NCBI GenBank assembly: GCA_031384385.1
Contig: JANNAN010000008.1
Location: forward strand, 1 to 42,058
DNA: 42,058 nt
Direction: 5' to 3'
Origin: Candidatus Tayloriibacteriota bacterium
GTDB lineage: Bacteria; Patescibacteriota; Minisyncoccia; Phycocordibacterales; PALSA-1337
The translations under genes and the position numbers were made by a program. The notes under the pieces are model-generated. The model had not been told where the DNA came from and searched no databases. It worked only from the letters and a program-made list of their open reading frames with translations. Below are positions 1,657 through 37,289 of the stretch, piece after piece (within the stretch, counting starts at the first letter, position 1; the number at the start of each line of letters is the position of its first letter).

Positions 1657-2046
1657 ATGTACATACAGGAATTTGATTTATGGAATGATCAGAAGAAAAA
1701 TATTAGTCAAACTATATTTACTCGTTTTTATAAGGAGCGAGAGATTTGGTGGTGTAATTTGGGAAAAAATATAGGTAGTGAACAAGATGGTAAAGGAGAT
1801 TATTATGAAAGGCCCGTATTAGTAATAAAAGCATTTAGCAGGTCTGTTTGTTTGATAATACCATTAACTACTTCTGCAAAAGAAAGTAAATTTTATTATA
1901 AAGTCGGTGTAATTGATGAGAAAGATGCTTCTGTTGTAATATCTCAAATCAAACTTATAAACACCAGAAGACTAACAAATAGAATATCGATATTAGATGA
2001 TGGAATCTTTCAAAACATAAGAAAAACCATCAGGGATTTATTCTGA
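1657..2046 (+). CDS. PemK/MazF-family endoribonuclease toxin
   Basis: Motifs EIWWCNLG.NIGSEQ.G, RPVLV, IPLTT, SQI..I...RL. Confidence 0.85.
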   Translation: MYIQEFDLWNDQKKNISQTIFTRFYKEREIWWCNLGKNIGSEQDGKGDYYERPVLVIKAFSRSVCLIIPLTTSAKESKFYYKVGVIDEKDASVVISQIKLINTRRLTNRISILDDGIFQNIRKTIRDLF

Positions 2047-2056
2047 TGGTTTTTCT
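2020..2056. terminator. Bidirectional hairpin spanning the mazF-1 stop codon
   Basis: 14-bp perfect inverted repeat agaaaaaccatcag (2020-2033) / ctgatggtttttct (2043-2056). Confidence 0.75.
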
Positions 2057-2105
2057 ACTTGTTCTCCCTATTTCTAGGGCGGGGCCGAAGCCATTGATAC
2101 TTAAT

Positions 2106-2133
2106 ATAATAGCAAATCAAAATTTACTGTCAA
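2106..2133 (-). promoter_or_regulatory. Convergent sigma70 promoter facing mazF-1
   Basis: Minus strand reads TTGACA-N16-TATTAT with an extended TG. Confidence 0.65.
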
Positions 2134-2141
2134 GAAAGATT

Positions 2142-2210
2142 AAGGGGAATTTAGATAATGAAAAAAGCTCTCTAGGAGATAAAACTCTCAGAGAACCTTT
2201 TTCGTCGTGA
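2142..2210 (+). pseudogene. Remnant 3' end of a NYN-like gene
   Basis: Reads KGNLDNEKSSLGDKTLREPFSS*, resembling the NYN C-terminus KDKLEYIRKAPLEDETSRSAFP*; same hairpin and convergent promoter context. Confidence 0.5.
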
Positions 2211-2215
2211 TGTAC

Positions 2216-2337
2216 ATATATTATCACCTTCAAAAAATTATACAAGAAGCCACTTAGAAAAGTGGTTTCTTGTTGTTTATTTTATCAACACCTTATCCCC
2301 GCGAGATAAAGAAAGGATAAAGTTTTTGTGGTTTTTG
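2216..2337 (+). repeat. Inter-cassette repeat copy R2
   Basis: Core AGCCACTTAGAAAAGTGGTTT at 2248-2268; left flank shared with R3, right flank shared with R5. Confidence 0.85.
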
Positions 2338-2405
2338 GCGTATACAATGATTTTCTAATTGCTAGAATATTTAGATGATTATAATTAACATATCTAAAAT
2401 AAAAT

Positions 2406-2795
2406 ATGCTGAAAAGATTTATAGAATGGATTGGATTAAAAGAAAAACTTCACAATAACAACTCCACACCACCTTTGGTCAAGGAAAGAGATTTGTGGTG
2501 GATTAGTATGGGTGAGAATATTGGTTCAGAGATAAATGGCAAGAGTAAACTCTTTTCTCGACCTGGAATTATTTTGAAGAAACTATCCCATGGTTTTTAT
2601 CTTATTGTTCCAACAACAACACAGAAAAGAGAGGGGACGTGGTATGTGAATATTCATCATAATGAAATAGATATGTATGCCTGCTTGCATCAGATCAGAA
2701 CAATTGATTATAGAAGATTATCAACAAAATTTGGACAAATTAGTCACGGGGAACTCACTAAGATTAAAGAATCATTTAATAAGTTATATAAATAG
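2406..2795 (+). CDS. PemK/MazF-family endoribonuclease toxin
   Basis: Motifs DLWWISMGENIGSEINGK, RPGII, VPTTT, QIRTIDYRRL. Confidence 0.85.
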   Translation: MLKRFIEWIGLKEKLHNNNSTPPLVKERDLWWISMGENIGSEINGKSKLFSRPGIILKKLSHGFYLIVPTTTQKREGTWYVNIHHNEIDMYACLHQIRTIDYRRLSTKFGQISHGELTKIKESFNKLYK

Positions 2796-2848
2796 AAACA
2801 AAATTCCCCACCTTTTGGGCGGGGCCGCGGCTAATGCCGAATGTAGAT

Positions 2849-2908
2849 ATATATTATCACCTTCAAAAATTTATGCAAGAAGCCACTTAGAAAAGTGGTT
2901 TTTTGTTG
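2849..2908 (+). repeat. Inter-cassette repeat copy R3
   Basis: Core AGCCACTTAGAAAAGTGGTTT at 2881-2901; the downstream block 2932-3000 resembles 1567-1613. Confidence 0.85.
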
Positions 2909-3039
2909 GGAAAATTTTTTTAATTGCTGACAATCTCTATCAAATCTTTACTCTGTCTACAGCGTTTCTTTATTTTGTCTTTAGAATTTCTTTATCTCGG
3001 TACGGTAAAATATATAAATTATTATTAAATTTAAATAAA

Positions 3040-3573
3040 ATGAATAAGATAATTGAATTACAAATTGAAAATATAGTTAGTCATATTTACTTTATTAGAG
3101 GTAAGAAAGTAATGTTCGATAAGGATTTAGCTGAATTATATAGAGTAGACACAAAAGTATTAAATCAGGCAGTAAAAAGAAATATAAAGAGGTTTCCTTC
3201 TGATTTTGTGTTTAGATTAAATAAAGAAGAAACTAGTATATGGTATAGGGTATATTCAAGGTCACAAATTGTGACCTTGGGGAAAGGACAAAATATTAAG
3301 TATTACCCTTATGTTTTTACAGAACAAGGTGTGGCTATGTTATCAAGTATTTTGAAGAGTGAAACTGCGATAGACGTAAATATTCAAATTATGAGAACAT
3401 TTACAAAATTAAGAGAAATAATGTCTTCGAATTCTGAATTAAGAAATAAGATTGAAGAAATGGAGAAGAAATACAATAATAATTTTGAAGTTATTTTTGG
3501 AGCAATTAAAGAGTTATTGGCCGAGCCAGAAGAGAAGATTGTTGAGAATAAAGAGAGAGTAGGTTTCAACTAG
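3040..3573 (+). CDS. ORF6N-domain DNA-binding protein
   Basis: IRGKKVMFDKDLAELY, NQAVKRN..RFP.DF, PYVFTEQGVAMLSSIL. Start moved to ATG 3040 because the ORF-track extension runs through repeat R3. Confidence 0.85.
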   Translation: MNKIIELQIENIVSHIYFIRGKKVMFDKDLAELYRVDTKVLNQAVKRNIKRFPSDFVFRLNKEETSIWYRVYSRSQIVTLGKGQNIKYYPYVFTEQGVAMLSSILKSETAIDVNIQIMRTFTKLREIMSSNSELRNKIEEMEKKYNNNFEVIFGAIKELLAEPEEKIVENKERVGFN

Positions 3574-3576
3574 TTT

Positions 3577-3645
3577 CTCCCCATAACAGGTTAAAAAGTT
3601 GTACAAAGAGCCACTTAGAAAAGTGGTTTTTTGTTGTTTATTTTT
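3577..3645 (+). repeat. Inter-cassette repeat copy R4
   Basis: Core at 3609-3629; left flank nearly identical to R1. Confidence 0.85.
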
Positions 3646-3723
3646 CTACATCCTATTGATTCTCCATCCAACTAAAAGTATAATAGTAGTATTGTAATCC
3701 CAAGATTTAATTTTAATAAAAAT

Positions 3724-4839
3724 ATGGCTCAAATAAAGCGTTATTTAGAAGAAAAAATAATAGAAAGTATTCAAAAAGACAAGATTTTGATTATTTATGG
3801 CGCTAGACAAGTAGGAAAAACAACTTTAGTTAAGAAATTTCTAATAGGTGAAAAATCACTATATTTAAATGGAGATTTTATTGATGATGCAGAAAAGCTT
3901 GATAAACCAACAAAAGAAATGGTTGCTAGATTTGAACAATTAGATTTACTTATAATTGATGAAGCTCAAAATATTAAAGATATTGGTTTAAAACTTAAAG
4001 TAATACATGATACATTGCCAAATCTAAAGATCATTGCTACTGGTTCATCGAGCTTCGAGTTATCTAATAAAATCAATGAACCCTTAACAGGAAGACACTT
4101 CTCACATTTGATGTACCCATTTTCTTTTAAAGAAACAAAAAATCAAAATACTAATATAAAGGAGTCGATGGTTTATGGAATGTATCCTGATGTATTTTTG
4201 CAAGAAACAATCAAAGATAAAAGAGAAATTATAGAAAGAATTGCTTCAAGTTATCTTTTTAAAGATTTGCTTAATATTGAATATATAAAGAATCCAAAAT
4301 CATTAGAACATCTATTAAAAGTATTAGCATCACAAATTGGTAATGAAGTTTCATTTAATGAAATTTCAAATACATTAGATATTGATATAAAAACTGTAAC
4401 TAAATATATAGATATATTAGAAAAACTTTTTATAGTATTTTCTCTAAATCCACTAACTTCAAACACAAGAAAATCATTAACAAAAAAGAGAAAGTATTAT
4501 TTTTATGATTTAGGAATAAGAAATGCTATTTTAGGAGACTTTTCAGAAATAGAAAGTCGTGTTGATAAGGGTGCTTTGTGGGAAAACTTTTGTATTATAG
4601 AAAGACTAAAGAAAAATTCGGCTGAAGATAAAAATCCAAGATATTATTTTTTTAGAACATATCAGGGTGACGAGATAGATTTTATTGAAATTGATGATGC
4701 TGTTGTTACTGGTTTTGAATTTAAATATAGTAAAGATAATATAAGTAGTAAGGTAAAAAAAATGTACAAAGTAGATCTGAATGGGCAAGGAGAGATACAA
4801 GTCATTAACACTGAAAATTGTATAAATTTTATTTCTTAA
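3724..4839 (+). CDS. AAA+ ATPase (AAA_14 + DUF4143 type)
   Basis: Walker A GARQVGKT, Walker B IIDEAQ, TGSS, LTGR, KYYFYDLG, C-terminal EIDF...FEFK nuclease-like motif. Confidence 0.85.
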   Translation: MAQIKRYLEEKIIESIQKDKILIIYGARQVGKTTLVKKFLIGEKSLYLNGDFIDDAEKLDKPTKEMVARFEQLDLLIIDEAQNIKDIGLKLKVIHDTLPNLKIIATGSSSFELSNKINEPLTGRHFSHLMYPFSFKETKNQNTNIKESMVYGMYPDVFLQETIKDKREIIERIASSYLFKDLLNIEYIKNPKSLEHLLKVLASQIGNEVSFNEISNTLDIDIKTVTKYIDILEKLFIVFSLNPLTSNTRKSLTKKRKYYFYDLGIRNAILGDFSEIESRVDKGALWENFCIIERLKKNSAEDKNPRYYFFRTYQGDEIDFIEIDDAVVTGFEFKYSKDNISSKVKKMYKVDLNGQGEIQVINTENCINFIS

Positions 4840-4847
4840 TAAAATCA

Positions 4848-4968
4848 TCCCCCACAACAATTAAAACATTGTACAAGAAGCCACTTAGAAAAGTGGTTTT
4901 TTGTTGTTTATTTTATCCACATCTTATCCCCGTCAAATAAAGAAACGATAAAGTTTTTGTGGTTTTTG
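4848..4968 (+). repeat. Inter-cassette repeat copy R5
   Basis: Core at 4879-4899; left flank R1/R4-like, right flank R2-like. Confidence 0.85.
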
Positions 4969-5005
4969 ATATATACAGAAGTTTTTACATTGTTAAAATA
5001 GTTGG

Positions 5006-5545
5006 ATGGAAGACATTAAAAAGGAAAATAATTACGCTTTTATTGATAGTCAGAATCTAAATCTCGGCATACAAAAGCTTGGTTGGAAATTAGATTATTT
5101 TAAATTTAGAATTTATCTTAAAGAAAAATATAATGTCAGTAAGGCGTATATATTTATTGGTTATATGCCCTTGAACCAAAAACTTTATGAAAAATTAAAA
5201 GAAACGGGTTTTATCTTATGCTTTAAACCAACAATACCAAATTCTGACGGTAAATTTAAAGGTAATGTTGATGCCGATATGGTTTTACAAACAATAATTG
5301 AATTGAATAATTATAATAAAACCATAATTATTTCTAGTGATGGGGATTTCTATTCGTTAGTAAAATATCTCTATGAAAATAATAAATTAGAAATAGTTCT
5401 GAGTCCTGATATAGGTGAGTGTTCAAGTCTTTTAAAACAGAATGCGAAAGAAAAAATTCATTTTATGAATGAACTAAAAGATAAATTAGAGTATATAAGA
5501 AAAGCACCGCTTGAAGACGAAACATCAAGAAGTGCTTTTCCCTAA
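5006..5545 (+). CDS. NYN-domain (LabA/DUF88-type PIN-fold) RNase
   Basis: AFIDSQNL, KGNVDADMV, SSDGDF acidic motifs. Confidence 0.85.
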   Translation: MEDIKKENNYAFIDSQNLNLGIQKLGWKLDYFKFRIYLKEKYNVSKAYIFIGYMPLNQKLYEKLKETGFILCFKPTIPNSDGKFKGNVDADMVLQTIIELNNYNKTIIISSDGDFYSLVKYLYENNKLEIVLSPDIGECSSLLKQNAKEKIHFMNELKDKLEYIRKAPLEDETSRSAFP

Positions 5546-5557
5546 CGATACATTATT

Positions 5558-5587
5558 ATATTATCAAAATATGTAGTTTGCTGTCAA
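5558..5587 (-). promoter_or_regulatory. Convergent sigma70 promoter facing the NYN gene
   Basis: Minus strand reads TTGACA-N18-TAATAT with an extended TG. Confidence 0.6.
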
Positions 5588-5644
5588 ATTTTTGTACGCG
5601 TACACCAAATTTACTATCAATTCATTTTCTGCTACAATATAGAC

Positions 5645-5815
5645 ATGGTAAACCCATTCGACAGGACATTCTTTAGATTAATACTTGGTTTTACATTTAT
5701 ATTGAGTTTAAGCTTCTCAATTATGTATTTTGTTAATAAATATAGCTCAGTTTTTGATAATAAACAGGCAACTGCCTTAAAAAATGATTCGGATCAAATA
5801 AAAATTAAAAAATAA
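5645..5815 (+). CDS. Small single-pass membrane protein (56 aa; below the ORF-track cutoff)
   Basis: MVNPFDRTFFRLILGFTFILSLSFSIMYFV...; TGcTACAAT lies 6 nt before the ATG; a terminator follows at about 5836-5865. Confidence 0.6.
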   Translation: MVNPFDRTFFRLILGFTFILSLSFSIMYFVNKYSSVFDNKQATALKNDSDQIKIKK

Positions 5816-5977
5816 TAGCTAAAATGATTAAAGATAAAGCCACCACATAAAAGGTGGTTTTTCTTTTATTTATTTATATGTTGTGGTGAAAATCTTTATC
5901 ATTTATTTAGAATTTCTTTATCAGATCTTTATCTCTATTTTGTATAATTTATCTATTATTAAATAATTTATTTTATT

Positions 5978-11287: not shown

Positions 11288-12150
11288 GTTCTCTACACAG
11301 AAATATGTTAAGAAATCATTATTTTAAACGGCCATAACCACACCCTTTAAAAGGTGTAGAAATGAGTCGCTTAAAAAGCGGTTTTTTTGTAAAAATTTCA
11401 AAAGAAATTTCCGAACGACCGATACATTGACAATTTAATACTCCAACAATCTTGAACAATCAGAAGGTTGTTGGGGAAAAAGGTAATACTGTAATACATA
11501 TATATGATGAGGGTTTTTTCGAATATATATGTAGATATAGTATGTTGTTAAATAAACAGCCAAAAATATTAAATTATTTTTGTGCATGTTGTAGACAGAT
11601 AATTGTGGTTTTTAGATTTCCTAATGGGAAATTTAAGAGTATATGGTGGATGCCTTGGCTTCTAAGAAGCGATGAAGGACGTGGCGTGGCGACGATATGT
11701 TTCGGGGAGGTGCCTAGCAACCTTTGATCCGAAAATTTCCGAATGAGGAAACTCTCTGACTTCGAGTCAGAATTAAACAGCTTGACTGTTTAATGCACAC
11801 CCAGGGAAGTAAAACATTTCAGTACCTGGAGGAATAGAAACAAATATGAATTTCGTAAGTAGCGGCGAGCGAAAGCGGAAGAGCCCAAACCTAACCTTAA
11901 TCGTATTGCGGGACGCAAGTCTTGTGATGCGATTAAGGTTGGGGGTAGTAAGGTGAGAACGTACCATTTATGGTAGAAAAGTTACAAAATTTTTTGATAG
12001 AAGAATAAGCTGGAAAGCTTAGCCCTAGAAGGTGATAGCCCTGTAGTCGAAATCAAAAAATCTTTTTTGTTCTCATTCTTGAGTACCTCAAGACACGAAT
12101 GGCTTGAGGGAATCTGCCGGAACTAACCGGTAAGGCTAAATATTCTAGAA

Positions 12151-12190
<40 letters not shown>

Positions 12191-12763
12191 CAGCCCGGTA
12201 AGGGCGATGAAATAGACCTGAAACCATATATTTACAAGGAGTAGAAGAGGTAGCAATACCTCGACTGCGTGCCTATTGAAGAATGAGCCAACGAGTTGAT
12301 GCATGTTGCAGGCTAAGCGCGAGAGCGTGGAGCCACAGGGAAACCGAGTGTGAATAGCGCGTTAGTAGTATGCATCAGACCCGAAGCCAGATGAGCTTGC
12401 CTTGAGCAGGTTGAAGTTTGTCGAAAGACAGATGGAGGACCGAACGCTAAAGTTGTGCAATTCTTTGCGATGACTTGAGGTAAGGAGTGATAAGCTAATC
12501 GAATCTGGTAATAGCTGGTTCTCTCCGAAATAGCTTTTGGGCTAGCGTTGAATGTACCCCTCTGGGGTAGAGCACTGGAAGGTTCTGACAGGTCGAAAGA
12601 TCCCTGAACCTATCAAACTCCGAATACAGAGGATTAATTATTCAGCAGTTAGACGGTGGGGGCTAAGCTCCATACGTCAAAAAGGAAACAGCCTAGATCT
12701 CCATTTAAGGTCCCTAAATCTATGTTAAGTACACTTAAGGTGGTTGAATTTCTCAAACAATGA

Positions 12764-12795
<32 letters not shown>

Positions 12796-13602
12796 GAAAG
12801 CGTAACAGCTCACTCATCGAGAGATTCTGCGCCGCAGATAATCGGGGTTAAACATAGTACCGAAACTGAGGATTGTATTTTATTTCGATAATATACAGTG
12901 GTAGGAGAGTATTCTAATCTGCGTTGAAGGCAAAGGCGTGAGCCATGCTGGAGCGTTTAGAAGTAAGAATGTTGGCACAAGTAACCACAATGCGGGTGAG
13001 AATCCCGCACGCCGAAAGAACAAGGTTTCCTTGGCTATGAAAATCAGCCAAGGGTTAGTCGGGCCTAAGGGGATGGTGAAAACCGCACCCGATGGACACA
13101 TGGTTAATATTCCATGACTTTTATATAGAGTGATGAAGTGACGAAGTGCAGTATATGGTGCTCATTATTGGATTTGAGTGCATGCTATAGGGGATTGATC
13201 CAGGAAAATCCGGGTCGTGTCTTTAATGACAATTCCGAGTAGAGTGTAAATGTAGGGGTTCGCCCTTGCAGATATCATAAAGCGCGCTTCCGAGAAAAAC
13301 TTCTAAACTTATCTATATAGGAACCGTACCGCAAACCGACACAGGTGTTCAGGTCGAGTAGACCAAGGCGAACGAGTGAGAGGTCTCCAAGGAACTCGGC
13401 AAAAAATCAGCCGTAACTTCGGAATAAGGCTTGCCCTTTGTTAACTCAAGGGGCCGCAGCTAAAGTATCTCTGGCAACTGTTTATCAAAAACACAGCTCC
13501 CTGCGAACTCGTAAGAGGATGTATAGGGGGTGACACTTGACCAATGCCAGAAGGTCAAATAATGGCGGTGCGATTATATCAAGCTGACTGTTATAAGCCC
13601 TG

Positions 13603-13637
<35 letters not shown>

Positions 13638-13859
13638 TCTGCTACTCATGATTTGAGTGGCAGACGGACTAGGACTGTTATATAGCAAAGGTGTACGTTT
13701 TTAGATAAAATTAGTTAAAACAATTACATAAACAAGCTACCTGTTCATAAGTAATTATGAGCTGAGTCCAATGTGGTTAAATAGAGACCAACACCACACA
13801 TCCGATCTCCGTAAGGTGAGGATGAAGATAGAGTCCTACTGTGCTTAAAGGAATAGTAG
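13638..13859 (+). mobile_element. 222-nt group I-like intron at E. coli position L1931, no ORF
   Basis: Interrupts GGTCCTAAGGT^AGCGAAATTCC; preceded by U, ends in G; S-like AAGATAGAGTCC. Confidence 0.8.
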
Positions 13860-14522
13860 AGCGAAATTCCTTGTCGGGTAAGTTCCGACGCGCACGAATA
13901 GTGTAATGTCTGGAGAACTGTCTCGGAGACTTGCTCGGTGAAAATACAATATCGGTGAAGATGCCGATTACCTACAGTTAGACGAAAAGACCCTAGAAGC
14001 TTTACTGCAACTTGATTTTGACTATATGTTTTTTATGCGTAGCGTAGATGGGAGGATTTGAAGTTTTCTTTTCGGGGAAGATGGATCCGCAAGTGAAATA
14101 CCATTCTTAAAAAATATATATTCTAACCTCAACGGCAAAAACGATGAGAGACAGAATCTGGCGGGCAGTTTTAGTGGGGCGCTATCCTCCTAAAAAGTAA
14201 CGGAGGAGTTTATTAAGGTCAGCTAGCCGTGAATGGAAACCATGGCGATAGTGTATAGGCATAAGCTGGCTTGACTGTGAGACGTACTTGTCAAACAGAT
14301 GCGAAAGCAGAACTAAGTGAACCGACCTTACGCATTAGACGCGGGGGAAGATTATCGGATAAAAGCTACTCTAGGGATAACAGGCTGGTTGCGCCTAAGA
14401 GTTCATATCGACGGCGCAGTTCGGCACCTCGATGTCGGCTCAACTTATCCTGGGGCTGGAGAAGGTCCCAAGGGTTTGGCTGTTCGCCAATTAAAAAGTT
14501 ACGCGAGCTGGGTTCAGACCGT

Positions 14523-14878
14523 TCAGAAGTGAATGGTCGCCAATATAAGATGATTATTGACTGTTGAACAGTCTGAATCACTTCGAGTTAGTGTTAATTA
14601 AAAAATATTTTCGTTTAAAATAATTATAGATCTCAAGATTTATAATAATAAAAGATAAGGAAGTAGATCAATCAAATCACGGCGGTCCAGTATAGAAATA
14701 TATTCGGATCAAGTTAACTAGTATCGGTGGACTCCATTTAATAGTGGATTATACCGAGGGAAGTTGTCAATTAAATTTGGCTACACCCGTAGAGACTAAA
14801 CGTTAACTATCTAATTTGCGCGAAAGCGTAAAAAGATAATGCTATAGTCCAATGCAATGAGTAATCATTGAAAACATG
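14523..14878 (+). mobile_element. 356-nt group I intron at E. coli position L2593, no homing endonuclease
   Basis: Interrupts GGTTCAGACCGT^CGTGAGACAG; U before, terminal G; R motif AGAGACTA, S motif TATAGTCC, P4-like tcggt/accga. Confidence 0.9.
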
Positions 14879-15239
14879 CGTGAGACAGGTTGGTCTCCTA
14901 TCTACTGTAGGCGTTGATTCTTGAGGGGATTTGACTCTAGTACGAGAGGACCGAGTTGAACTGACCTCTGGTCTGACTGCTGTTCTACCAAGAGCATCGC
15001 AGTGTAGCTATGTCGGGAATGGATAACTTCTGAAAGCATCTAAGAAGGAAGCCAGCCCCAAGATTAGGAATCGTTTGAGACCCGTAAGAGATGATTACGT
15101 TGATAGGCTTTAGGTGTACGCATAGCAATATGTTGAGCCGAGAAGTACTAATCCGTCGATCCTATTAGGAAATTTAAGAACCACAATTATTTGTCTATAA
15201 CAATAATTATTTAACAACCTTTTGAAATTGAGTTTTTTG

Positions 15240-15349
15240 TTCTGGTGATTTGGCGCTGTGGAAACACCCGTTCTCATTCCGAACACGGAAGTGAAACGCA
15301 GTTGCGGTGATGATACTCTTATGAAGGGGAAAGTAACTAGTCGCCAGTA
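15240..15349 (+). rRNA. rrf: 5S rRNA
   Basis: CTGGTGA...CCCGTTCTCATTCCGAACACGGAAGTGAA...TCGCCAG. Confidence 0.92.
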
Positions 15350-23174: not shown

Positions 23175-24670
<1,496 letters not shown>

Positions 24671-24874
24671 AAATTGAATCTACGATTTTGATCTTTTAGA
24701 TCATTATCTTACCGAGTCGATTGATTGTTAATATTTATATTTTCAGTCCAAAGGCCATTGTTCTACACCTAAACGTGAACACTCAGCCCGCGAGAGAAAG
24801 GGCATAGGTTGGTACCCTCTATAGAGGTACTAACCGAATGAACGGAACAAAATAAAGAACATTTAATTTTTATG

Positions 24875-27182: not shown

Positions 27183-28598
27183 ATGAATAACGGAAAGAAG
27201 ACTAAGATTGTATGTACTATAGGTCCAGCCACAGAAAGTCTAGAAAAGCTTACTGCACTTGTTGAGGCTGGTATGAATGTAATGCGTTTAAATTTCTCAC
27301 ATGGAGATTTCGCTGAACATCAAGGGCGTATTAATAATTTAAAAAAAGTAGTAGAAAAAACAGGTAAAACTGTTGCTACGATGCAAGACCTTGGTGGTCC
27401 AAAGATTCGTATCGGAGAATTTGAAAAGGGAATGATTGTTTTGAAAGAAGGGCAAACATTTATACTTACTACTGAACCAATAATGGGAGATGAAAAGAAA
27501 GTTTTCGTCAATTACCCACTACTTCCTAAGGAAGTTAAAGTTGGTGGTTTTGTACTATTACATGACGGTAAAAAGAAATTACAGATTACAGACATAAAGG
27601 GCAATGAAGTAATTACAAAAGTTATTATCGGTGGAGAGATAAAGAATAAAAGAGGGGTAAATCTTCCTGGTGCATATCTTTCAATGAGTTCAATTACAGA
27701 AAAAGACAGAAAAGATCTTGAATTTGGAATAAAAAATAAAGTAGATTTTATTGCACTTTCATTTGTTAGAAGGCCTTCTGATATTAGTGAATTAAGAGAT
27801 TTGCTTTCAAAAGCAAAATCAAAGGCTCATATTATTGCAAAAATTGAAACTCCAGAAGCATTAGAAAATATTGATGAAATTATAAATCTTGCTGACGGAA
27901 TAATGGTTGCAAGAGGGGATCTTGCAATAGAAATTCCAGCAGAGGAAGTTCCATTGGTTCAAAAAATGCTGATTAGTAAATGCAATACGCTTGGAAAGCC
28001 AGTTATTACAGCAACGCAAATGTTGGAATCGATGATAAAAAGTCCAGTTCCTACTAGAGCTGAAGTTTCTGATATAGCCAATGCAATTATCGATGGTACT
28101 GATGCTATTATGCTTTCAGAAGAAACAACTCTTGGAGATTTTCCAGTAGAATCTGTTCAGATGATGTCTCGTATTGCCCTAAGAGTTGAAAAAGATGTTT
28201 ATACCACAGACACAATTGCAGAATATGATGATTCTCATGGTGTAACAGATGTTACTTCACAATCAGCAGTTCTTGCATCTCATGAAGTTGAAGCTAAATT
28301 TATAATTGCTCTGACAGAATCAGGTAGAACAGCAAGAATGGTGGCTCGGTATAGACCAGCAGAGAGAATTATTGCAATGACACTTACAGACTCAACAGCT
28401 AAAAAGTTATGTTTATCATTCGGTTGCTATCCTATTGTTGTTGAAAAATTTACAACAGTTGCTGAGGTTATGGGTATTGTAAGAAAAGTGGCTCTTAAGG
28501 AGAAAATCGCTGTAAAGGGAGATAAGGTGATTGTCGTGGCTGGAGTTCCATTCGGAAAAATTCAGGAGACAAATATGATGCTTATAGAAACTATCTAA
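27183..28598 (+). CDS. pyk: Pyruvate kinase
   Basis: TKIVCTIGPA, RLNFSHG, IIAKIE, MVARGDL, ATQMLESM, PTRAE. Confidence 0.98.
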   Translation: MNNGKKTKIVCTIGPATESLEKLTALVEAGMNVMRLNFSHGDFAEHQGRINNLKKVVEKTGKTVATMQDLGGPKIRIGEFEKGMIVLKEGQTFILTTEPIMGDEKKVFVNYPLLPKEVKVGGFVLLHDGKKKLQITDIKGNEVITKVIIGGEIKNKRGVNLPGAYLSMSSITEKDRKDLEFGIKNKVDFIALSFVRRPSDISELRDLLSKAKSKAHIIAKIETPEALENIDEIINLADGIMVARGDLAIEIPAEEVPLVQKMLISKCNTLGKPVITATQMLESMIKSPVPTRAEVSDIANAIIDGTDAIMLSEETTLGDFPVESVQMMSRIALRVEKDVYTTDTIAEYDDSHGVTDVTSQSAVLASHEVEAKFIIALTESGRTARMVARYRPAERIIAMTLTDSTAKKLCLSFGCYPIVVEKFTTVAEVMGIVRKVALKEKIAVKGDKVIVVAGVPFGKIQETNMMLIETI

Positions 28599-28654
28599 CT
28601 TTTCCTATTTAGGAAAGTTATCCCCACGAAATAAAGAAATGATAAAGATTTTAC

Positions 28655-28686
28655 AAAATATGCCCTTGCGGGCGTATTTTGTTTTA
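28655..28686 (+). terminator. Intrinsic terminator after pyk
   Basis: aaaatatgccc-ttgc-gggcgtatttt. Confidence 0.75.
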
Positions 28687-28700
28687 AGTAAAATTATTTC

Positions 28701-29462
28701 ATGACAACATTAATAAAAACAAAAATAAAAAAGTCTAAATTATATAGTTTGATGGATACAGATCTATTTCTTGATACAAATAATAGAGAATATATTCTTA
28801 AAATTAGAGATTTACCTTTTGATAGTAGACCTAGAGAAAAATTAATTAAAGACGGCCCAGAAGCTTTGGCGTTATCAGAATTATTAGCGGTTATTTTGAA
28901 TACAGGTAATAAAAAAGAAGATGTATTAGAAATGTCCAATCGTATTATTCGTGAATATGGTGAAAAAAGTATAATTGCACAAAAAAATGTAAATAAATTA
29001 GCCGAGGAATTAGATATTCCATTGTTAAAGGCCTGTCAAATTATTGCATGTGGAGAAATTGGTAGAAGATTTTATGAAAAGAATTCTTCAGGTTTGGCTG
29101 TGATCAGAAATGCAAAAGATGTTTACGAGTATTTACAAGATATGCGTAATTTACCAAAGGAACATTTGCGTGGGCTGTATTTGAATAGTCATAATCGTAT
29201 TATTCACGATGAAGTTATTTCTATCGGCACAATAAATTCTAGTATTATTCATGCACGCGAAGTATTTAGACCTGCCATTCAATACAATGCAGCAGCTATA
29301 ATTATTGCTCACAATCATCCTTCAGATATTGCCACACCAAGTTCGCAAGATTTAGAAATTACAAATCAATTGGTTAAAGTGGGTAAAATGCTGGGAATAA
29401 ATGTTCTTGATCATGTAATTATTACAAAAAGTACTTATGCGAGTATTAATGCACAATATTAA
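28701..29462 (+). CDS. radC: RadC/JAB-domain protein (start may be 28752)
   Basis: RPREKL, ELLAVIL.TG, AHNHPS...PS..D, VLDHVII. Confidence 0.92.
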   Translation: MTTLIKTKIKKSKLYSLMDTDLFLDTNNREYILKIRDLPFDSRPREKLIKDGPEALALSELLAVILNTGNKKEDVLEMSNRIIREYGEKSIIAQKNVNKLAEELDIPLLKACQIIACGEIGRRFYEKNSSGLAVIRNAKDVYEYLQDMRNLPKEHLRGLYLNSHNRIIHDEVISIGTINSSIIHAREVFRPAIQYNAAAIIIAHNHPSDIATPSSQDLEITNQLVKVGKMLGINVLDHVIITKSTYASINAQY

Positions 29463-29481
29463 AAATATAATAAAATTAAAT

Positions 29482-29802
29482 ATGAAAACATACAATATTA
29501 TTTCGCCATCATTAGATGGAGTTCTTTCTGAGGATCATCTTTATTTTGAAGGAGTCAGACGGCCGACTGAAATTTATAAAATTAGAGATGGAGGGGAAAT
29601 TAGACAGGAAAGTGTAGATGTATTAGAAAAATATTTTAATGATATCTACAATTTGTTTCTTAGAAAGCTTTCCGCTTTTGCAACTTTTGAATTTTCTTCA
29701 AATGAAGAAATTATGAAAATGCAGGCTCTGTTTCAAGAATTAATTAAGGTTAAGAGCCTATTAGAAGATATAAGTAAATTAGAACAGAAAAATTTGCTAT
29801 AA
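29482..29802 (+). CDS. Hypothetical protein
   Basis: ORF filling the gap between radC and the murD-like gene; no recognisable motif. Confidence 0.55.
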   Translation: MKTYNIISPSLDGVLSEDHLYFEGVRRPTEIYKIRDGGEIRQESVDVLEKYFNDIYNLFLRKLSAFATFEFSSNEEIMKMQALFQELIKVKSLLEDISKLEQKNLL

Positions 29803-33640: not shown

Positions 33641-33845
33641 ACTAGCAGTTTAAAGATTAGATCTTTGATACTAATTTGCAATTCGCTACAGCAGAAAGTG
33701 CCTTATAATTTAAGGAATTCTCTGCTGTGGCGAAGTCGTGTGACCAAGCCAGTCCTACCTAGGACAACAGTAAACCAAAAACTATCCGATTCAGAGCTTC
33801 CACCAAATATGTGTGGAGTGCAATGAGGAGGGAGAAAGGAATACA

Positions 33846-34544
33846 ATGAAAAAGTTAGATTGGAAAGGTGTTGGGCAGTTTTTTGCTGTCCTCATAAACC
33901 TCATCACCATCATCACGACTACCCTGAAAAAAGCTGCTGTCAGTATCGAGATCCTCGACTGGCTGACTGGCGCAGGGAAGTCGGAGTTTGTCGCTGCGCT
34001 CGAAAAGCTCGGCGAGTCCTACAAGAAATCTGTTCCTGAGCCTCTGCCGGTCAAGGCGAAAACGGGTGAGTCGTATGTGATACATTCCGCAAGGGTGAAT
34101 CTCTCTGCTCAACCGAAATTGCCTTTCAGCGGCGCGACCGTTGAGTCCAACACGGGAGGCGGCATGGACGTCTTGATCGAGATGAAATCGGATGGTCATC
34201 TGTATGTGGACGGAAAGAAAATCGTCCTCCATCTCGAACAAGGTCATCGCACAGGTTCAATGCATGGCCACAAGCTCCGCGAGGCGCTTAGAGGCAAGTC
34301 GGTCATGAATGCGGCTCTGCTGGATTTCCTCAAAGAAAACCCGCAGTTCATTCCGAACTATTGGAAGGTTGATGAAAAGGGCAATACCCGTTACATCTAC
34401 TTCTGGAGAACGGTTTTCCGCAGCTCCGATGGCAGCCTCTATGTCCGTTGCCTCTACTGGAACGATGGCAAGTGGATCGCGGACTACCGCTGGCTCGGTG
34501 ATGACTGGAGCTTCTTCGACCCGGCTGCGGTGTCCGCAAGTTAG
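33846..34544 (+). CDS. DGR target protein with C-terminal variable region
   Basis: ATG 33846 follows GGAGAAAGGA; the 3' end contains the VR; visibly GC-richer than its neighbours. Confidence 0.9.
   Translation: MKKLDWKGVGQFFAVLINLITIITTTLKKAAVSIEILDWLTGAGKSEFVAALEKLGESYKKSVPEPLPVKAKTGESYVIHSARVNLSAQPKLPFSGATVESNTGGGMDVLIEMKSDGHLYVDGKKIVLHLEQGHRTGSMHGHKLREALRGKSVMNAALLDFLKENPQFIPNYWKVDEKGNTRYIYFWRTVFRSSDGSLYVRCLYWNDGKWIADYRWLGDDWSFFDPAAVSAS
34418..34539 (+). repeat. DGR variable repeat (VR)
   Basis: 122-bp ungapped match to 34922-35043 with 14 mismatches, 13 of them opposite TR adenines. Confidence 0.96.
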
Positions 34545-34642
34545 CACTTAGGGCTCGGTTACTGTGTTCTGTGGCTTCTAGACACTTTGACCTTTGCTCT
34601 CGCGATACGAAAACGCTTTGAAGGGCGTTCGATAAAATCTTC

Positions 34643-34672
34643 AAACCCCGTTGCATCTGCGCGGGGTTTTAT
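34643..34672 (+). terminator. Hairpin downstream of VR (terminator and/or DGR homing hairpin)
   Basis: aaaccccg...cggggtttt; a second small hairpin lies at about 34611-34629. Confidence 0.65.
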
Positions 34673-34921
34673 TATTTATATATGCTAGAATTGTCCGCGG
34701 TAGTAGGTGAATATGCGAGCGACTACGGTTGCTCGCTACCGAATCCAGTATCCATACATCGAGAATATCTCCGACTAAGGTTTGGGGTAGAGTGGTGTAT
34801 TTCGAACTTCATCAAAAAATGAATATACTTGGTACGAAACGCTATAGTATTACGATACCAAATACGATACAACTCCGAGAGTATTCAAGGGGTGGTGGCA
34901 TGGAAGGCGTTTCGTATAATA

Positions 34922-35043
34922 CCGCAACTCCGATGGCAACCTCTATGTCCGTTACCTCTACTGGAACGATGGCAAGTGGATCACGAACTACAACTGGCTC
35001 GATAATGACTGGAACTCCAACAACCCGGCTGCGGTGTCCGCAA
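34922..35043 (+). ncRNA. DGR template repeat (TR)
   Basis: AAC-rich copy of VR; in the VR frame it reads RNSDGNLYVRYLYWNDGKWITNYNWLDNDWNSNNPAAVSA. Confidence 0.96.
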
Positions 35044-35079
35044 TTTTCTTCATTTCTCTCCCACAAAAACGGGAGAGTT

Positions 35080-35481
35080 TTATTTTTCTATTTGTTTATT
35101 TACTTGCCCATACCAACCACCAAGCATTTTACCTATTTCATGTAATAGGGCAGAAATAGTAATGTATTTTTTATTATCTAATCCTTTTGATTCCCATAAA
35201 ACTAATAAAAGTATTTTTAATGTATCTAATTTTCGTATAGCAACTTTTATATATGGTAATTTTTCTGATCTTGATGAAAAGGCCGCTGAAGAAATCATTT
35301 CAATTATCTCTATAAATATATTATCAATTTTATTACCCAGAGAGTATTTTTGCGACTTCTGAATTTTTTCATGATATTCATGCCATAACTTGTATACAAT
35401 TTTTACTCTATCTAGCACTGGTAAAATCGTTGGGGGGGGGAGGGTAACATTTGAGGAATGAGCAGAATTAAATTTATTCAT
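35080..35481 (-). CDS. avd: Avd-like accessory protein (four-helix bundle)
   Basis: LPV...Y.LW, KYSLG.KI, LD.LK.LL, EIGKMLGGW; lies between TR and RT; ATG 35481 preferred as start. Confidence 0.85.
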   Translation of the reverse strand: MNKFNSAHSSNVTLPPPTILPVLDRVKIVYKLWHEYHEKIQKSQKYSLGNKIDNIFIEIIEMISSAAFSSRSEKLPYIKVAIRKLDTLKILLLVLWESKGLDNKKYITISALLHEIGKMLGGWYGQVNKQIEK

Positions 35482-36459
35482 GCGTACGATGATATCATTT
35501 CTATAGAAAATTTGCTCGAAGCATGGCATGAATTTATTTTAGGCAAAAAGAACAGAAAAGATGTTCAGCTGTTCCAGCTTCATCTAATGGATAATATTAT
35601 TGATTTACACAAAGAATTAAAAAATAAGACATATATTCATCATGGTTACAAAGCTTTTAAAATTTCAGATCCCAAACCTAGAAACATTCACAAGGCCAGT
35701 GTTAGAGATAGGCTACTTCACCATGCCATTTATCGTATGTTATATCCATTTTTCGATAGGACATTTATAGCCGATTCTTATTCTTGTCGTATGCGAAAGG
35801 GCACACATAAGGCCATGGATAGATTTAATATCTTTACTAAAAAACTTTCAAAAAATCATACGAAAACGGCATGGGTTCTCAAATGTGATATTAAAAAGTT
35901 TTTTGATTCAATTGACCATGCTGTTTTAAGAGAAATTTTATCAAAGTATATTTTAGATCAGAATATTTTAAATCTTTTGTCCGGGATAATCGGTAGTTTT
36001 GAATCAAAAATAGATAGTACTGGTGTTGGTTTACCACTAGGCAATCTCACATCACAATTATTTGTAAATATTTACATGAATGAATTCGATCAATTTATGA
36101 AGCATAAAATTAAGGCTAAATATTATATAAGATACGCAGATGATTTTGTGATTATGGATAATAATAAAGATTATTTAATTAAATTACTCCCTAAGATTAA
36201 TGATTTTTTAAATGATAAGTTAAAACTTACGCTTCATCATGGTAAGGTCTTTATAAAAACAGTTAATTCGGGTGTTGATTTTCTTGGCTGGATTCATTTT
36301 ACTGATCATAGAGTATTAAGAACTTCAACAAAAAGAAGAATGTTTAGAAATTTAAAGTCTAAAAAGCCTCAAGAAGCCACTGTTCAATCATATCTAGGCT
36401 TATTTAAACATGGGAATGCAAAAGAGTTGGGGAATAAAATAAGGGGACTTTATTTATAA
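35458..36459 (+). CDS. DGR reverse transcriptase
   Basis: PKPR.I, RDRLLHHA, SYSCR..KGTH.A, KCDIKKFF, GLPLGNLTSQLF.NIY, RYADDF, GVDFLG. Confidence 0.96.
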   Translation: MSRIKFIHAYDDIISIENLLEAWHEFILGKKNRKDVQLFQLHLMDNIIDLHKELKNKTYIHHGYKAFKISDPKPRNIHKASVRDRLLHHAIYRMLYPFFDRTFIADSYSCRMRKGTHKAMDRFNIFTKKLSKNHTKTAWVLKCDIKKFFDSIDHAVLREILSKYILDQNILNLLSGIIGSFESKIDSTGVGLPLGNLTSQLFVNIYMNEFDQFMKHKIKAKYYIRYADDFVIMDNNKDYLIKLLPKINDFLNDKLKLTLHHGKVFIKTVNSGVDFLGWIHFTDHRVLRTSTKRRMFRNLKSKKPQEATVQSYLGLFKHGNAKELGNKIRGLYL

Positions 36460-36483
36460 TTAGATTTAATATATTATTTGTAT

Positions 36484-36654
36484 ATGAAAAATTTAAAATC
36501 TAATAAAAAGAGAAAAAATAAAATTCCTGTATCATATTATCCATCTGAATATCTGAAAAAAACTATTGCTGAGTCAGAAAGAGAATACGCTGAGGGTAAA
36601 ACAAAGTCTTATTCTAGCGTGGAAGAATTAATTAAGGCCTTGAACTCGAATTAA
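36484..36654 (+). CDS. Small protein resembling the C-terminal part of RelB/DinJ-type antitoxins (56 aa)
   Basis: ...PSEYLKKTIAESEREYAEGKTKSYSSVEELIKALNSN*; TATTAT lies 6 nt before the ATG. Confidence 0.55.
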   Translation: MKNLKSNKKRKNKIPVSYYPSEYLKKTIAESEREYAEGKTKSYSSVEELIKALNSN

Positions 36655-37289
36655 ACTGCTTTCCCCAAAATCTCCTTAACCTCCTCCAAATCCTCTGACC
36701 AATTTTCTCCGTCAAACCACTCTATTCCAGAAAATTGTAATTTATAAGTATCACTAGGTCTTTGAAGAGATCCAAGATAAACATATTTTAATCCAAGCGT
36801 CTTTGCTTCTAGAATTGCCTTTATCATCATTATCATTCCCATATTTTTGGGTGTAGTTTCTAAATTATAAAAAGGATAGCAATAATGCATCATTGAATTA
36901 TTTTTATAACAAATAGTATAACCAAATCCTGAATATGAAAGTAGGGAATTGAAATTATGATTTGTTGTTAGTATTTCTTTAATTTTATTTGCTGAAAATG
37001 CATGATCTGTTTTTTCATCATAAAAATTCTTAGCCATTTTACCGATTTCCCAAGTATATGCTGAATAGGGAATTGAATGTTCTTCAAATATTACTTTTTC
37101 ACCTTTCTTTAGAATTCTGCGATTTTCACTTGAAATTTCAAATTTACCTAAATCAATTCGTATACTTCTAGTTTGTTGCATTATTCCTTTTTCTAAGCGT
37201 GTAAAAACAAAACCATTATCATACATTTTGGTAATGATTTCAGGAGAATCATTTTCTATTTTTTCCTCTTTCCAATTTAAGTATTTCAT
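36651..37289 (-). CDS. Aminoacyl-tRNA-protein transferase-like protein (ATE1/Bpt-like GNAT fold)
   Basis: SIRIDL..F..S...RRIL, Y.FY......MG..M....I..AK.LGLKYVYLG, YK.QF..IEWFDG..W. Confidence 0.7.
   Translation of the reverse strand: MKYLNWKEEKIENDSPEIITKMYDNGFVFTRLEKGIMQQTRSIRIDLGKFEISSENRRILKKGEKVIFEEHSIPYSAYTWEIGKMAKNFYDEKTDHAFSANKIKEILTTNHNFNSLLSYSGFGYTICYKNNSMMHYCYPFYNLETTPKNMGMIMMIKAILEAKTLGLKYVYLGSLQRPSDTYKLQFSGIEWFDGENWSEDLEEVKEILGKAV

What the first reader, a model, noticed from the sequence alone, without database searches (positions are those of the whole stretch)
33846..36459. Complete diversity-generating retroelement with clear adenine-specific mutagenesis
Seen: VR 34418-34539 and TR 34922-35043 align without gaps over 122 bp. 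There are 14 mismatches, 13 at TR adenines (10 A>G, 2 A>T, 1 A>C) and one C>T (35017/34513). TR has 30 adenines in 20 codons before the GC-rich tail, all at codon positions 1-2 (theoretical 4^30 sequences); only one of these codons (AAG) can mutate to a stop. The invariant GC-rich 3' end followed by divergence fits G/C-IMH/IMH*. RT and Avd are intact. DGRs are known to be abundant in CPR; here the 232-aa target has an N-terminal hydrophobic segment and no family I recognise.
Basis: seen in the sequence. Interest (0 to 1): 0.85.

Follow-up and report, generated by a model that had tools for sequence, protein, structure and literature searches.

The report
CPR diversity-generating retroelement with structured template RNA
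This is a genuine, complete diversity-generating retroelement of the kind common in tiny CPR bacteria, and its template repeat turns out to sit inside a conserved, highly structured non-coding RNA that I could not find described.

Summary
VR 34418-34539 and TR 34922-35043 align without gaps; 13 of 14 mismatches lie at TR adenines. The RT (best solved relative 8ub7_A, E 5e-43), Avd (bAvd, DivGenRetAVD) and target ORF are intact. The layout target-TR-(avd)-RT is Wu et al.'s architecture B3, typical of CPR DGRs. The RT has at least 574 relatives; the 80 best kept mostly carry Patescibacteria-type names. As a DGR it is therefore an ordinary new member of a known clade.

Beyond the finding: the about 225 nt between the target's terminator and the TR form a multi-helix RNA with strong covariation (35 of 38 pairs compensatory in 45 sequences). 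It abuts the TR in 28 of 29 loci. It occurs in 70 of 80 RT-anchored loci, and 9 of the 10 misses lack the upstream sequence. It has its own extended -10 box and a conserved 3' stem-loop with T-run. It matches no Rfam family, and four paper searches found no description.

Current activity could not be tested because only contigs were available.

The parts
33846..34544 (+). Target gene, 232 aa. N-terminal helical part, beta-rich middle, C-terminal domain (residues about 116-232) weakly like C-type lectin folds.
   Evidence: ORF. No Pfam or NCBIfam family. 35 close homologues and 1968 cluster representatives at E<=1e-3. AF2 models: pLDDT 88.6 for the whole protein, 96.9 for residues 75-232. Fold searches.
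33870..33926 (+). Codons for the hydrophobic helix (residues 9-27), a candidate membrane anchor.
   Evidence: Mean Kyte-Doolittle hydropathy 1.84 over 19 residues. Helix 6-29 in the model. Membrane insertion is inferred.
34418..34539 (+). Variable repeat (VR); it encodes the last 41 residues of the target.
   Evidence: Across 35 homologues, entropy is 2.34 bits at TR-adenine codons and 0.77 bits at other VR codons.
34519..34539 (+). G+C-rich 3' tail of VR, identical to the TR tail 35023-35043 (IMH-like).
   Evidence: Its function is inferred from the Bordetella element. Wu et al. note that IMH and IMH* are identical in some DGRs.
34545..34620 (+). Region after the stop codon carrying 'CTTNG' motifs. 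In relatives it forms a 7-8-nt periodic array and a ladder-like imperfect palindrome.
   Evidence: Own copy: 4 motifs against 0.89 expected. 26 loci: 97 against 17.7 expected, 7 on the other strand. The own copy does not fold better than shuffles.
34646..34670 (+). Hairpin plus T-run; the likely terminator of the target gene.
   Evidence: Read. The same arrangement (hairpin, T-run, then promoter box) is seen in relatives. The scan did not list it because the loop is longer than its limit.
34683..34691 (+). Extended -10 box (pattern TGNTANAAT) for the template RNA.
   Evidence: Read. A like box stands at the same distance upstream of the leader in most of the 29 loci printed. Transcription is not shown.
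34699..34920 (+). Structured 5' leader of the template RNA. Helices: P1 34699-34740, P2 34753-34801, P3 34832-34843 with 34906-34917, P4 34846-34859, P5 34872-34893.
   Evidence: Conserved in 12 of 44 other genomes of the genus. Covariation shown. The covariance model R1 hits 34741-34920.
34817..34824 (+). A-rich linker segment of the leader, proposed to pair with 35048-35055 just after the TR.
   Evidence: 86.5% of cells paired, and 6 of 8 pairs show compensatory change in 26 sequences. The rival local hairpin is not supported.
34922..35043 (+). Template repeat (TR).
35048..35087 (+). Post-TR segment (35048-35055), then a 7-bp stem-loop (35056-35077) and a T-run (35078-35087). This is the proposed 3' end of the template RNA.
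   Evidence: Terminator-like site. The same hairpin plus T-run is seen after the TR in all four own loci and in most relatives, including RT-less ones. Stem covariation.
35083..35481 (-). Avd accessory gene (133 aa from the conserved Met), opposite in orientation to TR and RT.
   Evidence: Pfam bAvd 2.1e-12. NCBIfam DivGenRetAVD 2.9e-17, 62.9 bits against a cut-off of 80. The N-terminus is conserved with the C4 copy. No sequence match among solved structures.
35458..36459 (+). DGR reverse transcriptase, 333 aa.
   Evidence: RVT_1 3.5e-25. Best solved relative 8ub7_A at 5.4e-43 over residues 10-314. 574 relatives in species genomes.

Best explanation
The region 33846-36459 is a complete diversity-generating retroelement of the Patescibacteria (CPR) clade, with the layout target / TR / avd (reversed) / RT.

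Shown: the parts, the adenine-specific TR-to-VR differences, and the long-term hypervariability of exactly the TR-adenine codons in the target family.

Inferred working: the target gene ends at its own terminator. A separate promoter (extended -10 box at 34683-34691) then drives a discrete non-coding template RNA of about 390 nt. That RNA consists of a 5' multi-helix leader (34699-34920), the 122-nt TR, an 8-nt segment that pairs back to the leader, and a 3' stem-loop with a U-run (to about 35087). RT and Avd are made from divergent, overlapping genes. They would bind this RNA and copy the TR into cDNA while misreading adenines. Copying would stop where helix P3 abuts the first TR base. The cDNA would replace the VR, using the identical G+C-rich tail as the 3' homing site.

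The product is a probably membrane-anchored protein. Its C-terminal, lectin-like ligand-binding face can take about 5e17 sequences.
For: TR/VR pair: 13 of 14 mismatches at TR adenines. All 30 variable adenines are at codon positions 1 or 2, and only one codon can become a stop.

Proteins: RT is closest to 8ub7_A (5.4e-43) and shares the ...LTSQLF... and ...DD... stretches in the printed alignment. Avd matches.

Recurrence of the layout: it is present in two more loci of the same genome and in 23 of 29 RNA-anchored loci. Wu et al. call it B3 and find it in 90% of their CPR set.

Past activity: VR entropy is 2.34 bits at A-codons against 0.77 bits at other codons (Mann-Whitney p 2e-6). Against the 84%-identical homologue P0002, 16 of 20 A-codons differ, but only 1 of 21 other VR codons and 21 of 191 residues outside the VR.

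Leader RNA:
- On an unfitted MAFFT alignment of 16 sequences, 90.3% of cells pair (34-48% when slid), and 37 of 47 pairs show compensatory change.
- In 45 model-aligned sequences, 96.7% pair (35-49% when slid), and 35 of 38 pairs are compensatory.
- The RNA end lies within 5 nt of the TR start in 28 of 29 loci, where 438 of 486 TR/VR mismatches are at adenines.
- The RNA is found in 70 of 80 RT-anchored loci, and 9 of the 10 misses have under 540 nt upstream.

Flanking signals: promoter box and preceding terminator; 3' hairpin plus T-run; leader-to-post-TR duplex.
Against: No transcript, cDNA or present-day VR polymorphism was seen. The only run holding the locus is kept as contigs and did not cover the target, VR or TR.

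The roles of the leader (RT-Avd binding, cDNA stop) rest on position and on analogy with the Bordetella RNP, not on any test.

One VR/TR mismatch is not at an adenine.

Avd scores below NCBIfam's cut-off.

One RT locus with full upstream flank (L109) lacks the RNA. The fourth locus of this genome (C4b) has no model hit.

Four relatives keep target, RNA and TR without RT or Avd nearby. In three of those genomes the RT query found nothing, so the cassette can outlive the enzyme.
Confidence: 0.9

Rival explanations
1. The element is a recently silenced or fossil DGR. The parts are present, but no diversification happens now, and the VR/TR differences record past activity only.
For: No read-level data could be obtained. 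One non-adenine mismatch exists. Only 13 of 30 variable adenines differ. Relatives exist in which target, RNA and TR persist without RT or Avd, still with clean adenine bias (L060 9 of 9, L068 13 of 15). A clean pattern therefore does not prove a working enzyme.
Against: The RT, Avd and target ORFs are all intact. The RNA scores 180 bits over the full length of the model. The TR tail and VR tail are identical. The nearest homologue differs at 16 of 20 A-codons but at only 21 of 191 residues outside the VR.
Confidence: 0.2
2. The conserved structured RNA at 34699-34920 is not part of the retroelement's machinery. It would be an unrelated cis-regulatory element or small RNA (for example a 3' UTR element of the target gene) that merely travels with the cassette.
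For: No experiment links it to reverse transcription. It is retained in RT-less cassettes. The Bordetella element needs only 20 nt upstream of the TR.
Against: Its 3' end abuts the TR within 5 nt in 28 of 29 loci. It is separated from the target gene by a terminator and a promoter-like box. It is present in 70 of 80 loci chosen by their RT alone, whatever the target or TR sequence. A linker in it covaries with the segment just after the TR.
Confidence: 0.07
3. The G+C-rich block (target, leader, TR; about 50% G+C inside a 33% genome) is an assembly chimera or contaminant insertion, so the apparent element joins parts of two organisms.
For: G+C jumps from about 0.28-0.30 (RT, Avd, neighbours) to about 0.50-0.56. 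The bin holds contigs of 0.48-0.55 G+C (C1, C2, C6, C18).
Against: Both flanks are host-like. The same jump is seen in the other loci of this genome. The target body is richer in G+C than the RT gene in 22 of 22 relatives from other genomes, median +0.13. The junction TR / hairpin / avd is conserved in sequence.
Confidence: 0.03

Closest known systems
CPR/Patescibacteria DGRs: architecture B3, TR-(avd)-RT, of Wu et al. 2018 (PMC5758913, sections 10, 18, 22 and passages read), and DGR clade 2 of Roux et al. 2021 (PMC8144416, passages read).
   Same: Same gene order and strands, with the target upstream. The RT is 61-68% identical to the 80 best kept relatives, most of which carry Patescibacteria-type names. 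The target has no known motif, as in most of Wu's CPR set.
   Different: Nothing in the gene content differs. The structured leader, its promoter and the post-TR duplex are not mentioned in the passages and sections I read. In Wu et al. the terms 'secondary structure' and 'upstream of the TR' occur 0 times. Supplements were closed.
Bordetella phage BPP-1 DGR (mtd-avd-TR-brt) and its bRT-Avd-RNA particle (Handa et al. preprint 10.1101/2023.10.23.563531, abstract, sections 10 and 19 and passages read; Guo et al. 2011 PMC3240598, abstract read).
   Same: RT of the same clade, Avd, adenine-specific TR-to-VR transfer, and a G+C-rich homing tail. There is a stem-loop just after the TR; the preprint reports a putative Avd-binding stem-loop there in 207 of 278 DGRs. 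Sequences up- and downstream of the TR pair with each other, as in the preprint's 'cPRT Stop' duplex.
   Different: In BPP-1 the functional RNA lies mostly 3' of the TR (140-nt spacer) and only 20 nt upstream are needed. Here only about 45 nt follow the TR before a terminator-like T-run, while about 225 structured nt precede it. Avd is on the other strand. The TR has its own promoter-like box. The post-VR element is a periodic CTTNG array rather than a 24-bp G+C-rich hairpin, and it is weak in this copy.
RT-1 to RT-19 RNA motifs near RT genes; RT-10 lies between TR and brt of BPP-1 (Weinberg et al. 2017, PMC5737381, section 22 passages read).
   Same: Structured RNAs found next to RT genes. 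The authors speculated that further RT motifs act in DGRs.
   Different: A scan of 34540-35470 against all 4227 Rfam 15 families at E<=10 gave six weak hits, none named as an RT motif. I did not verify which RT motifs Rfam holds. The leader lies 5' of the TR, not between TR and RT.
C-type-lectin-fold variable proteins of DGRs (Mtd, 1yu0).

Membership tests
Diversity-generating retroelement | Reverse transcriptase of the DGR clade | tested here: met
   RVT_1 3.5e-25. The best solved relative is 8ub7_A (328 aa, 'Reverse transcriptase') at 5.4e-43, against 4.6e-23 for the best group II intron RT. That 8ub7 is the Bordetella phage bRT is my recall, not a call. No phylogeny was built.
Diversity-generating retroelement | TR/VR near-repeat whose differences fall at TR adenines | tested here: met
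   13 of 14 mismatches at adenines over 122 ungapped nt. A genome-wide self-comparison finds the pair among a few adenine-biased pairs, most of them at the genome's other DGR loci.
Diversity-generating retroelement | VR at the 3' end of a protein-coding target, with adenines at codon positions 1 and 2 | tested here: met
   The VR encodes residues 192-232 of 232. All 30 variable adenines are at codon positions 1 or 2.
Diversity-generating retroelement | Accessory protein Avd | tested here: met
   Pfam bAvd 47.9 bits against a cut-off of 40. NCBIfam DivGenRetAVD 62.9 bits against a cut-off of 80, so below that model's threshold.
Diversity-generating retroelement | IMH at the VR end, distinguished from IMH* at the TR end | tested here: inconclusive
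   The 21-nt G+C-rich tails are identical, and the sequences diverge right after them. Wu et al. report such cases. Function is not testable here.
Diversity-generating retroelement | Ongoing mutagenic retrohoming (VR polymorphism at adenine positions within a population) | not testable with these tools
   The only holder run is kept as contigs, and none covered 33794-34666 or the TR. Indirect support comes from between-lineage variation.
Architecture B3, TR-(avd)-RT (Wu et al. 2018) | Order TR, avd on the reverse strand, RT, with no other accessory gene | tested here: met
   The definition was read.
C-type-lectin-fold DGR variable protein | The VR-bearing domain has the C-type-lectin fold | tested here: inconclusive
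Rfam RNA families (including RT-associated motifs) | Match of the leader to a curated covariance model | tested here: not met
   Nothing at gathering scores in this region. At E<=10 there were only six weak, unrelated hits.

The most novel reading that the evidence does not exclude
The whole Patescibacteria DGR clade uses a free-standing template RNA gene of about 390 nt with its own promoter and terminator. A 5' five-helix domain, clamped to the post-TR segment by a covarying duplex, would take over the roles that the 3' spacer plays in the Bordetella paradigm: recruiting RT-Avd, placing the primer, and stopping cDNA at the first TR base. This would be an undescribed RNA class present in roughly a sixth to a third of sampled CPR genomes. 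It would also make target+RNA+TR a portable cassette, separable from the enzyme genes.
Probability: 0.5. Interest if true: 0.7.

Novelty: new member of a known kind. Interest (0 to 1): 0.5.

Why it matters
As a DGR the locus adds little, because CPR genomes are known to be rich in this architecture. The value lies in what the locus exposed.

First, it reveals a strongly covarying RNA domain fixed to the 5' edge of the TR throughout the clade. This gives a concrete, testable model for how the commonest environmental DGRs recognise their template. It also gives a covariance model that marks TRs, and so targets, directly, even where the RT is missing or off the contig.

Second, the target's unnamed family is large (1968 clusters at 50% identity). 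It offers a compact, confidently modelled scaffold for DGR variation.

Third, the systematic G+C excess of target genes over their own RT genes (22 of 22 loci) remains unexplained. It may bear on how these cassettes move or recombine.

Tried and rejected
Read-level test of VR variation. One run (X1, possibly the source of the window) holds the stretch, but only as Logan contigs. The pieces laid did not cover the target, VR or TR, so nothing can be said. No RNA holder was listed.

A joint in one contig of that run (33735 to 35113, side 27, under 95% likeness) was not used. By the tool's own warning it may come from another organism.

Fold searches. Foldseek against PDB gave no hit with E<=0.001 for the whole model or the C-terminal model. 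A profile of 150 homologues against PDB sequences gave only one hit, at E 0.97. The ESM Atlas gave only unnamed clusters. Avd had no sequence match in PDB.

I modelled the 3' 180 positions instead, so helix P1 rests only on the 16-sequence MAFFT alignment (82% and 70% of cells paired).

A local hairpin in the leader's A-rich linker, considered as an alternative to the long-range duplex, has no covariation support.

A fixed-register script test of the long-range duplex gave a small excess only: 6.49 of 8 paired against 6.10 for permuted partners, maximum 6.43 in 1000 permutations.

The post-VR palindrome seen in relatives does not fold better than shuffles in this window's own copy (z -0.13 as RNA, +0.49 as DNA).

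Trans-acting RT for RT-less cassettes. In three of four such genomes the RT query found nothing, and in the fourth only a 28%-identical hit. Trans supply is therefore not supported, though only one query was used.

Paul et al. 2017 (PMC5436926) is not held, and supplements are closed. A prior description of the leader there cannot be excluded.

Full report
**1. The observation**

The stretch was read and the two repeats compared by script. VR 34418-34539 and TR 34922-35043 are 122 nt each and align without gaps, with 14 mismatches.

- TR has 32 adenines in 122 nt, so 13 of 14 at adenines has a binomial probability of about 3e-7 (my arithmetic).
- Similarity ends at both borders. The repeat finder lists the pair as family D4.
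- Thirty adenines fall in 20 codons (residues 193-225), all at codon positions 1 or 2. Only AAG (residue 209) can give a stop.
- The 20 codons allow about 5e17 protein sequences (one search gives 2.1e18 including a twenty-first codon outside the repeat).
- The last 21 nt of VR and TR are identical and G+C rich.

**2. The proteins**

- RT. The ORF 35458-36459 (333 aa) matches RVT_1 (3.5e-25). Among solved structures it is closest to 8ub7_A, a 328-aa 'Reverse transcriptase' (5.4e-43, residues 10-314). The best group II intron RT follows at 4.6e-23. That 8ub7 is the Bordetella phage enzyme is my recall.
- Avd. The ORF on the minus strand (35083-35481 from the Met that is conserved with the paralogue on contig C4) matches Pfam bAvd (2.1e-12, above cut-off). 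It also matches NCBIfam DivGenRetAVD (2.9e-17, 62.9 bits, below the cut-off of 80).
- Arrangement. Avd and RT are divergent and their 5' ends overlap by 24 nt. The order TR-(avd)-RT is architecture B3 of Wu et al. 2018, which accounts for 90% of their CPR set (section 22).
- Relatives. A scan of species genomes found 574 RT relatives. The best 80 are 61-68% identical, and most carry Patescibacteria-type names. Roux et al. 2021 describe a DGR clade restricted to Patescibacteria (passage).

As a DGR the locus is thus an ordinary member of a known clade.

**3. The genome**

- The window is contig C16 of a 652-kb, 24-contig genome.
- It holds four RVT_1 matches and the start of a fifth RT at the end of C17.
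- Adenine-biased TR/VR pairs occur at C4 (two) and C17 besides this one.
- Four RT matches is the maximum among 45 genomes of the genus, shared with one other genome; 15 have none.
- A search of the genome with TR and its flanks found VR and nothing else beyond chance words, so there is no remote VR.

**4. The target**

- Family. There is no Pfam or NCBIfam family. The word-index search gave 35 homologues. The exhaustive search gave 1968 cluster representatives at E<=1e-3 and 884 at <=1e-10, mostly matching residues about 80-232, some with several copies of the domain.
- Distribution. Among relatives the gene is patchy: 15 of 61 genomes, G000 included.
- N-terminus. Residues 9-27 are hydrophobic (mean hydropathy 1.84).
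- Models. AlphaFold models are confident: pLDDT 88.6 for the whole protein and 96.9 with pTM 0.91 for residues 75-232.
- Past diversification. In the 35-sequence alignment the 20 adenine codons have a mean entropy of 2.34 bits against 0.77 for the other VR codons (Mann-Whitney p 2e-6). The 84%-identical homologue P0002 differs at 16 of 20 adenine codons, 1 of 21 other VR codons and 21 of 191 residues elsewhere.

**5. What lies between VR and TR**

The 379-nt spacer is not filler. Its last 225 nt are 70-79% identical in 12 of 44 other genomes of the genus, in loci whose TRs differ. They also recur at two other loci of this genome.

- RNAalifold on a plain MAFFT alignment of 16 copies predicts 41 pairs, 31 with compensatory changes.
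- With helix P1 added by hand, 90.3% of cells pair against 34-48% when partners are slid. Thirty-seven of 47 pairs show changes on both sides, and no shuffle of 500 reaches any measure.
- A covariance model of the 3' 180 positions finds full-length matches at C16, C4 and C17 of this genome.
- It also finds matches in 46 of 151 genomes sampled from the order (45 of 131 genera) and in 25 of 151 sampled from the phylum, G000 included in each count.
- On 45 model-aligned copies 96.7% of cells pair (35-49% slid), and 35 of 38 pairs are compensatory. That alignment leans towards the model's structure, which is why the unfitted result is given first.
- Rfam has no match: nothing at gathering scores, and only six weak unrelated rows at E<=10.

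**6. The RNA belongs to the retroelement**

- In 29 RNA-anchored loci, 23 have avd (reversed) and RT downstream. One is cut by a contig end, and five have neither within 1.5 kb.
- The RNA's 3' end lies within 5 nt of the TR start in 28 of 29 loci, the window's own included. In those loci 438 of 486 TR/VR mismatches are at adenines.
- In the independent sample of 80 loci chosen by RT similarity, 70 have the RNA on the RT's strand about 550 nt upstream. Nine of the ten misses hold fewer than 540 nt upstream, so only L109 lacks it with full flank.
- Upstream of the leader most loci show a hairpin with T-run and then a TGNTANAAT-type box. Here these lie at 34646-34670 and 34683-34691.
- Downstream of the TR, after a short conserved segment, all four own loci and most relatives have a stem-loop followed by a T-run. 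Here these are 35056-35077 and 35078-35087.
- The 8 nt before that stem (35048-35055) can pair with the leader's A-rich linker (34817-34824). In 26 full-length copies 86.5% of cells pair and 6 of 8 pairs show compensatory change. Together with the 3' stem, 88.5% pair against 44-63% when slid, with 0 of 500 shuffles reaching it.
- A competing local hairpin is not supported.

**7. How it probably works, and what is inferred**

Shown: the parts, the adenine bias, the conserved structure and its fixed place.

Inferred: a discrete template RNA of about 390 nt is transcribed from its own promoter and ended by the 3' stem-loop. RT-Avd would bind it, copy the TR and stop at helix P3, whose 3' strand (34906-34917) ends 4 nt before the TR.

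The Bordetella work provides the analogy. There the RNA around the TR envelops the RT. A downstream segment pairs with the upstream flank to stop cDNA synthesis, and a stem-loop after the TR binds Avd (preprint abstract, sections 10 and 19, and passages). That survey looked at only 40 nt upstream of the TR, so it would not have seen this domain.

The difference here is where the bulk of the RNA lies: about 225 structured nt on the 5' side and about 45 nt on the 3' side, against 20 and 140 in the phage.

**8. Is the RNA in print?**

- Four full-text searches found no description of it.
- Weinberg et al. 2017 describe RT-1 to RT-19 motifs and place RT-10 between TR and RT of the phage.
- Wu et al. 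2018 have no occurrence of 'secondary structure' or 'upstream of the TR'.
- Paul et al. 2017 is not held, and all supplements were closed, so priority cannot be settled here.

**9. Things that do not fit or remain open**

(a) Four relatives keep target, RNA and TR with adenine-biased differences but have no RT or Avd nearby. The RT query found nothing in three of those genomes and a 28% hit in the fourth. Cassettes can therefore outlast the enzyme, and a clean pattern is no proof of present activity.

(b) The target, leader and TR are far richer in G+C than their surroundings. Third-position G+C is 0.62 in the non-VR part of the target, against 0.18-0.24 in RT, Avd and the neighbouring ligase gene. 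The target body exceeds the RT gene in 22 of 22 relatives, median +0.13. A-avoidance does not explain it, because A and T are equally low. I have no tested explanation.

(c) After the VR, relatives carry a strand-specific array of CTTNG motifs: 97 against 17.7 expected, with a modal spacing of 7-8 nt. The array folds into ladder-like imperfect hairpins, with mean z -1.56 and only 7 of 26 below -1.5. This may be the counterpart of the post-VR hairpin needed for efficient homing in the phage (Guo et al. 2011, abstract). In this window's copy it is weak.

(d) Present activity is untested.

**10. Verdict**

The element is a new member of a known kind. The added interest is the template RNA architecture, which is a property of the clade rather than of this locus.

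Noticed in passing
window 33846-35043; L045-L073: Target gene, leader and TR are much richer in G+C than RT, Avd and the genome. The window's target has third-position G+C of 0.62 against 0.18-0.24 in neighbours. The target body exceeds the RT gene in 22 of 22 related loci, median +0.13. A and T are equally depleted, so adenine avoidance is not the cause. Unexplained.
   Followed up: partly
window 34545-34620; the 60-90 nt after VR in L045-L073: A strand-specific array of CTTNG motifs at 7-8-nt spacing follows the target's stop codon (97 against 17.7 expected in 26 loci). It folds into ladder-like imperfect palindromes in many relatives. It is weak in the window's own copy.
   Followed up: partly
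L047, L049, L060, L068 (genomes G188, G136, G078, G145): These cassettes have target-VR, leader RNA and TR with adenine-biased differences, but no RT or Avd within 1.5 kb. The RT query found no close RT anywhere in those genomes (only a 28% hit in G136).
   Followed up: partly
G000 contigs C4 (about 13261-15030 and 27930-29618), C17 (24001-25018), C21 (11688-12576): The 652-kb genome carries four further DGR loci or parts of them. Two complete ones are on C4, and one of these (C4b) has a different Avd and RT type and no hit of the leader model. One on C17 has its RT cut by the contig end. C21 has an RT with one in-frame TAG. Contigs C17 and C21 end beside long G or C runs like the one at window 35432-35444.
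   Followed up: partly
window 11620-15171, 15241-15349, 23175-24674: The 23S rRNA match spans 3552 nt for a 2925-position model, so it holds about 600 extra nt (insertion or intron). It is flanked by a 43-nt inverted repeat (11587-11629 and 15160-15202). The 16S gene lies about 8 kb downstream of 23S-5S rather than upstream.
   Followed up: no
window 1484-5973: Five copies of a 69-nt repeat, each ending in a hairpin with T-run, plus further repeat families (D2, D3, D5). Together they look like tandem cassettes of small paralogous genes with shared terminators.
   Followed up: no
G000 contigs C1, C2, C6, C18: These contigs have 0.48-0.55 G+C in a bin that is otherwise 0.31-0.34, so they are probably contamination. 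C1 is 26.6 kb.
   Followed up: no
window 36478-36654: A 58-aa ORF directly after the RT has no Pfam or NCBIfam match. The next gene (36651-37289, minus strand) weakly resembles the C-terminus of arginyl-tRNA-protein transferase (E 2e-4, below cut-off).
   Followed up: no
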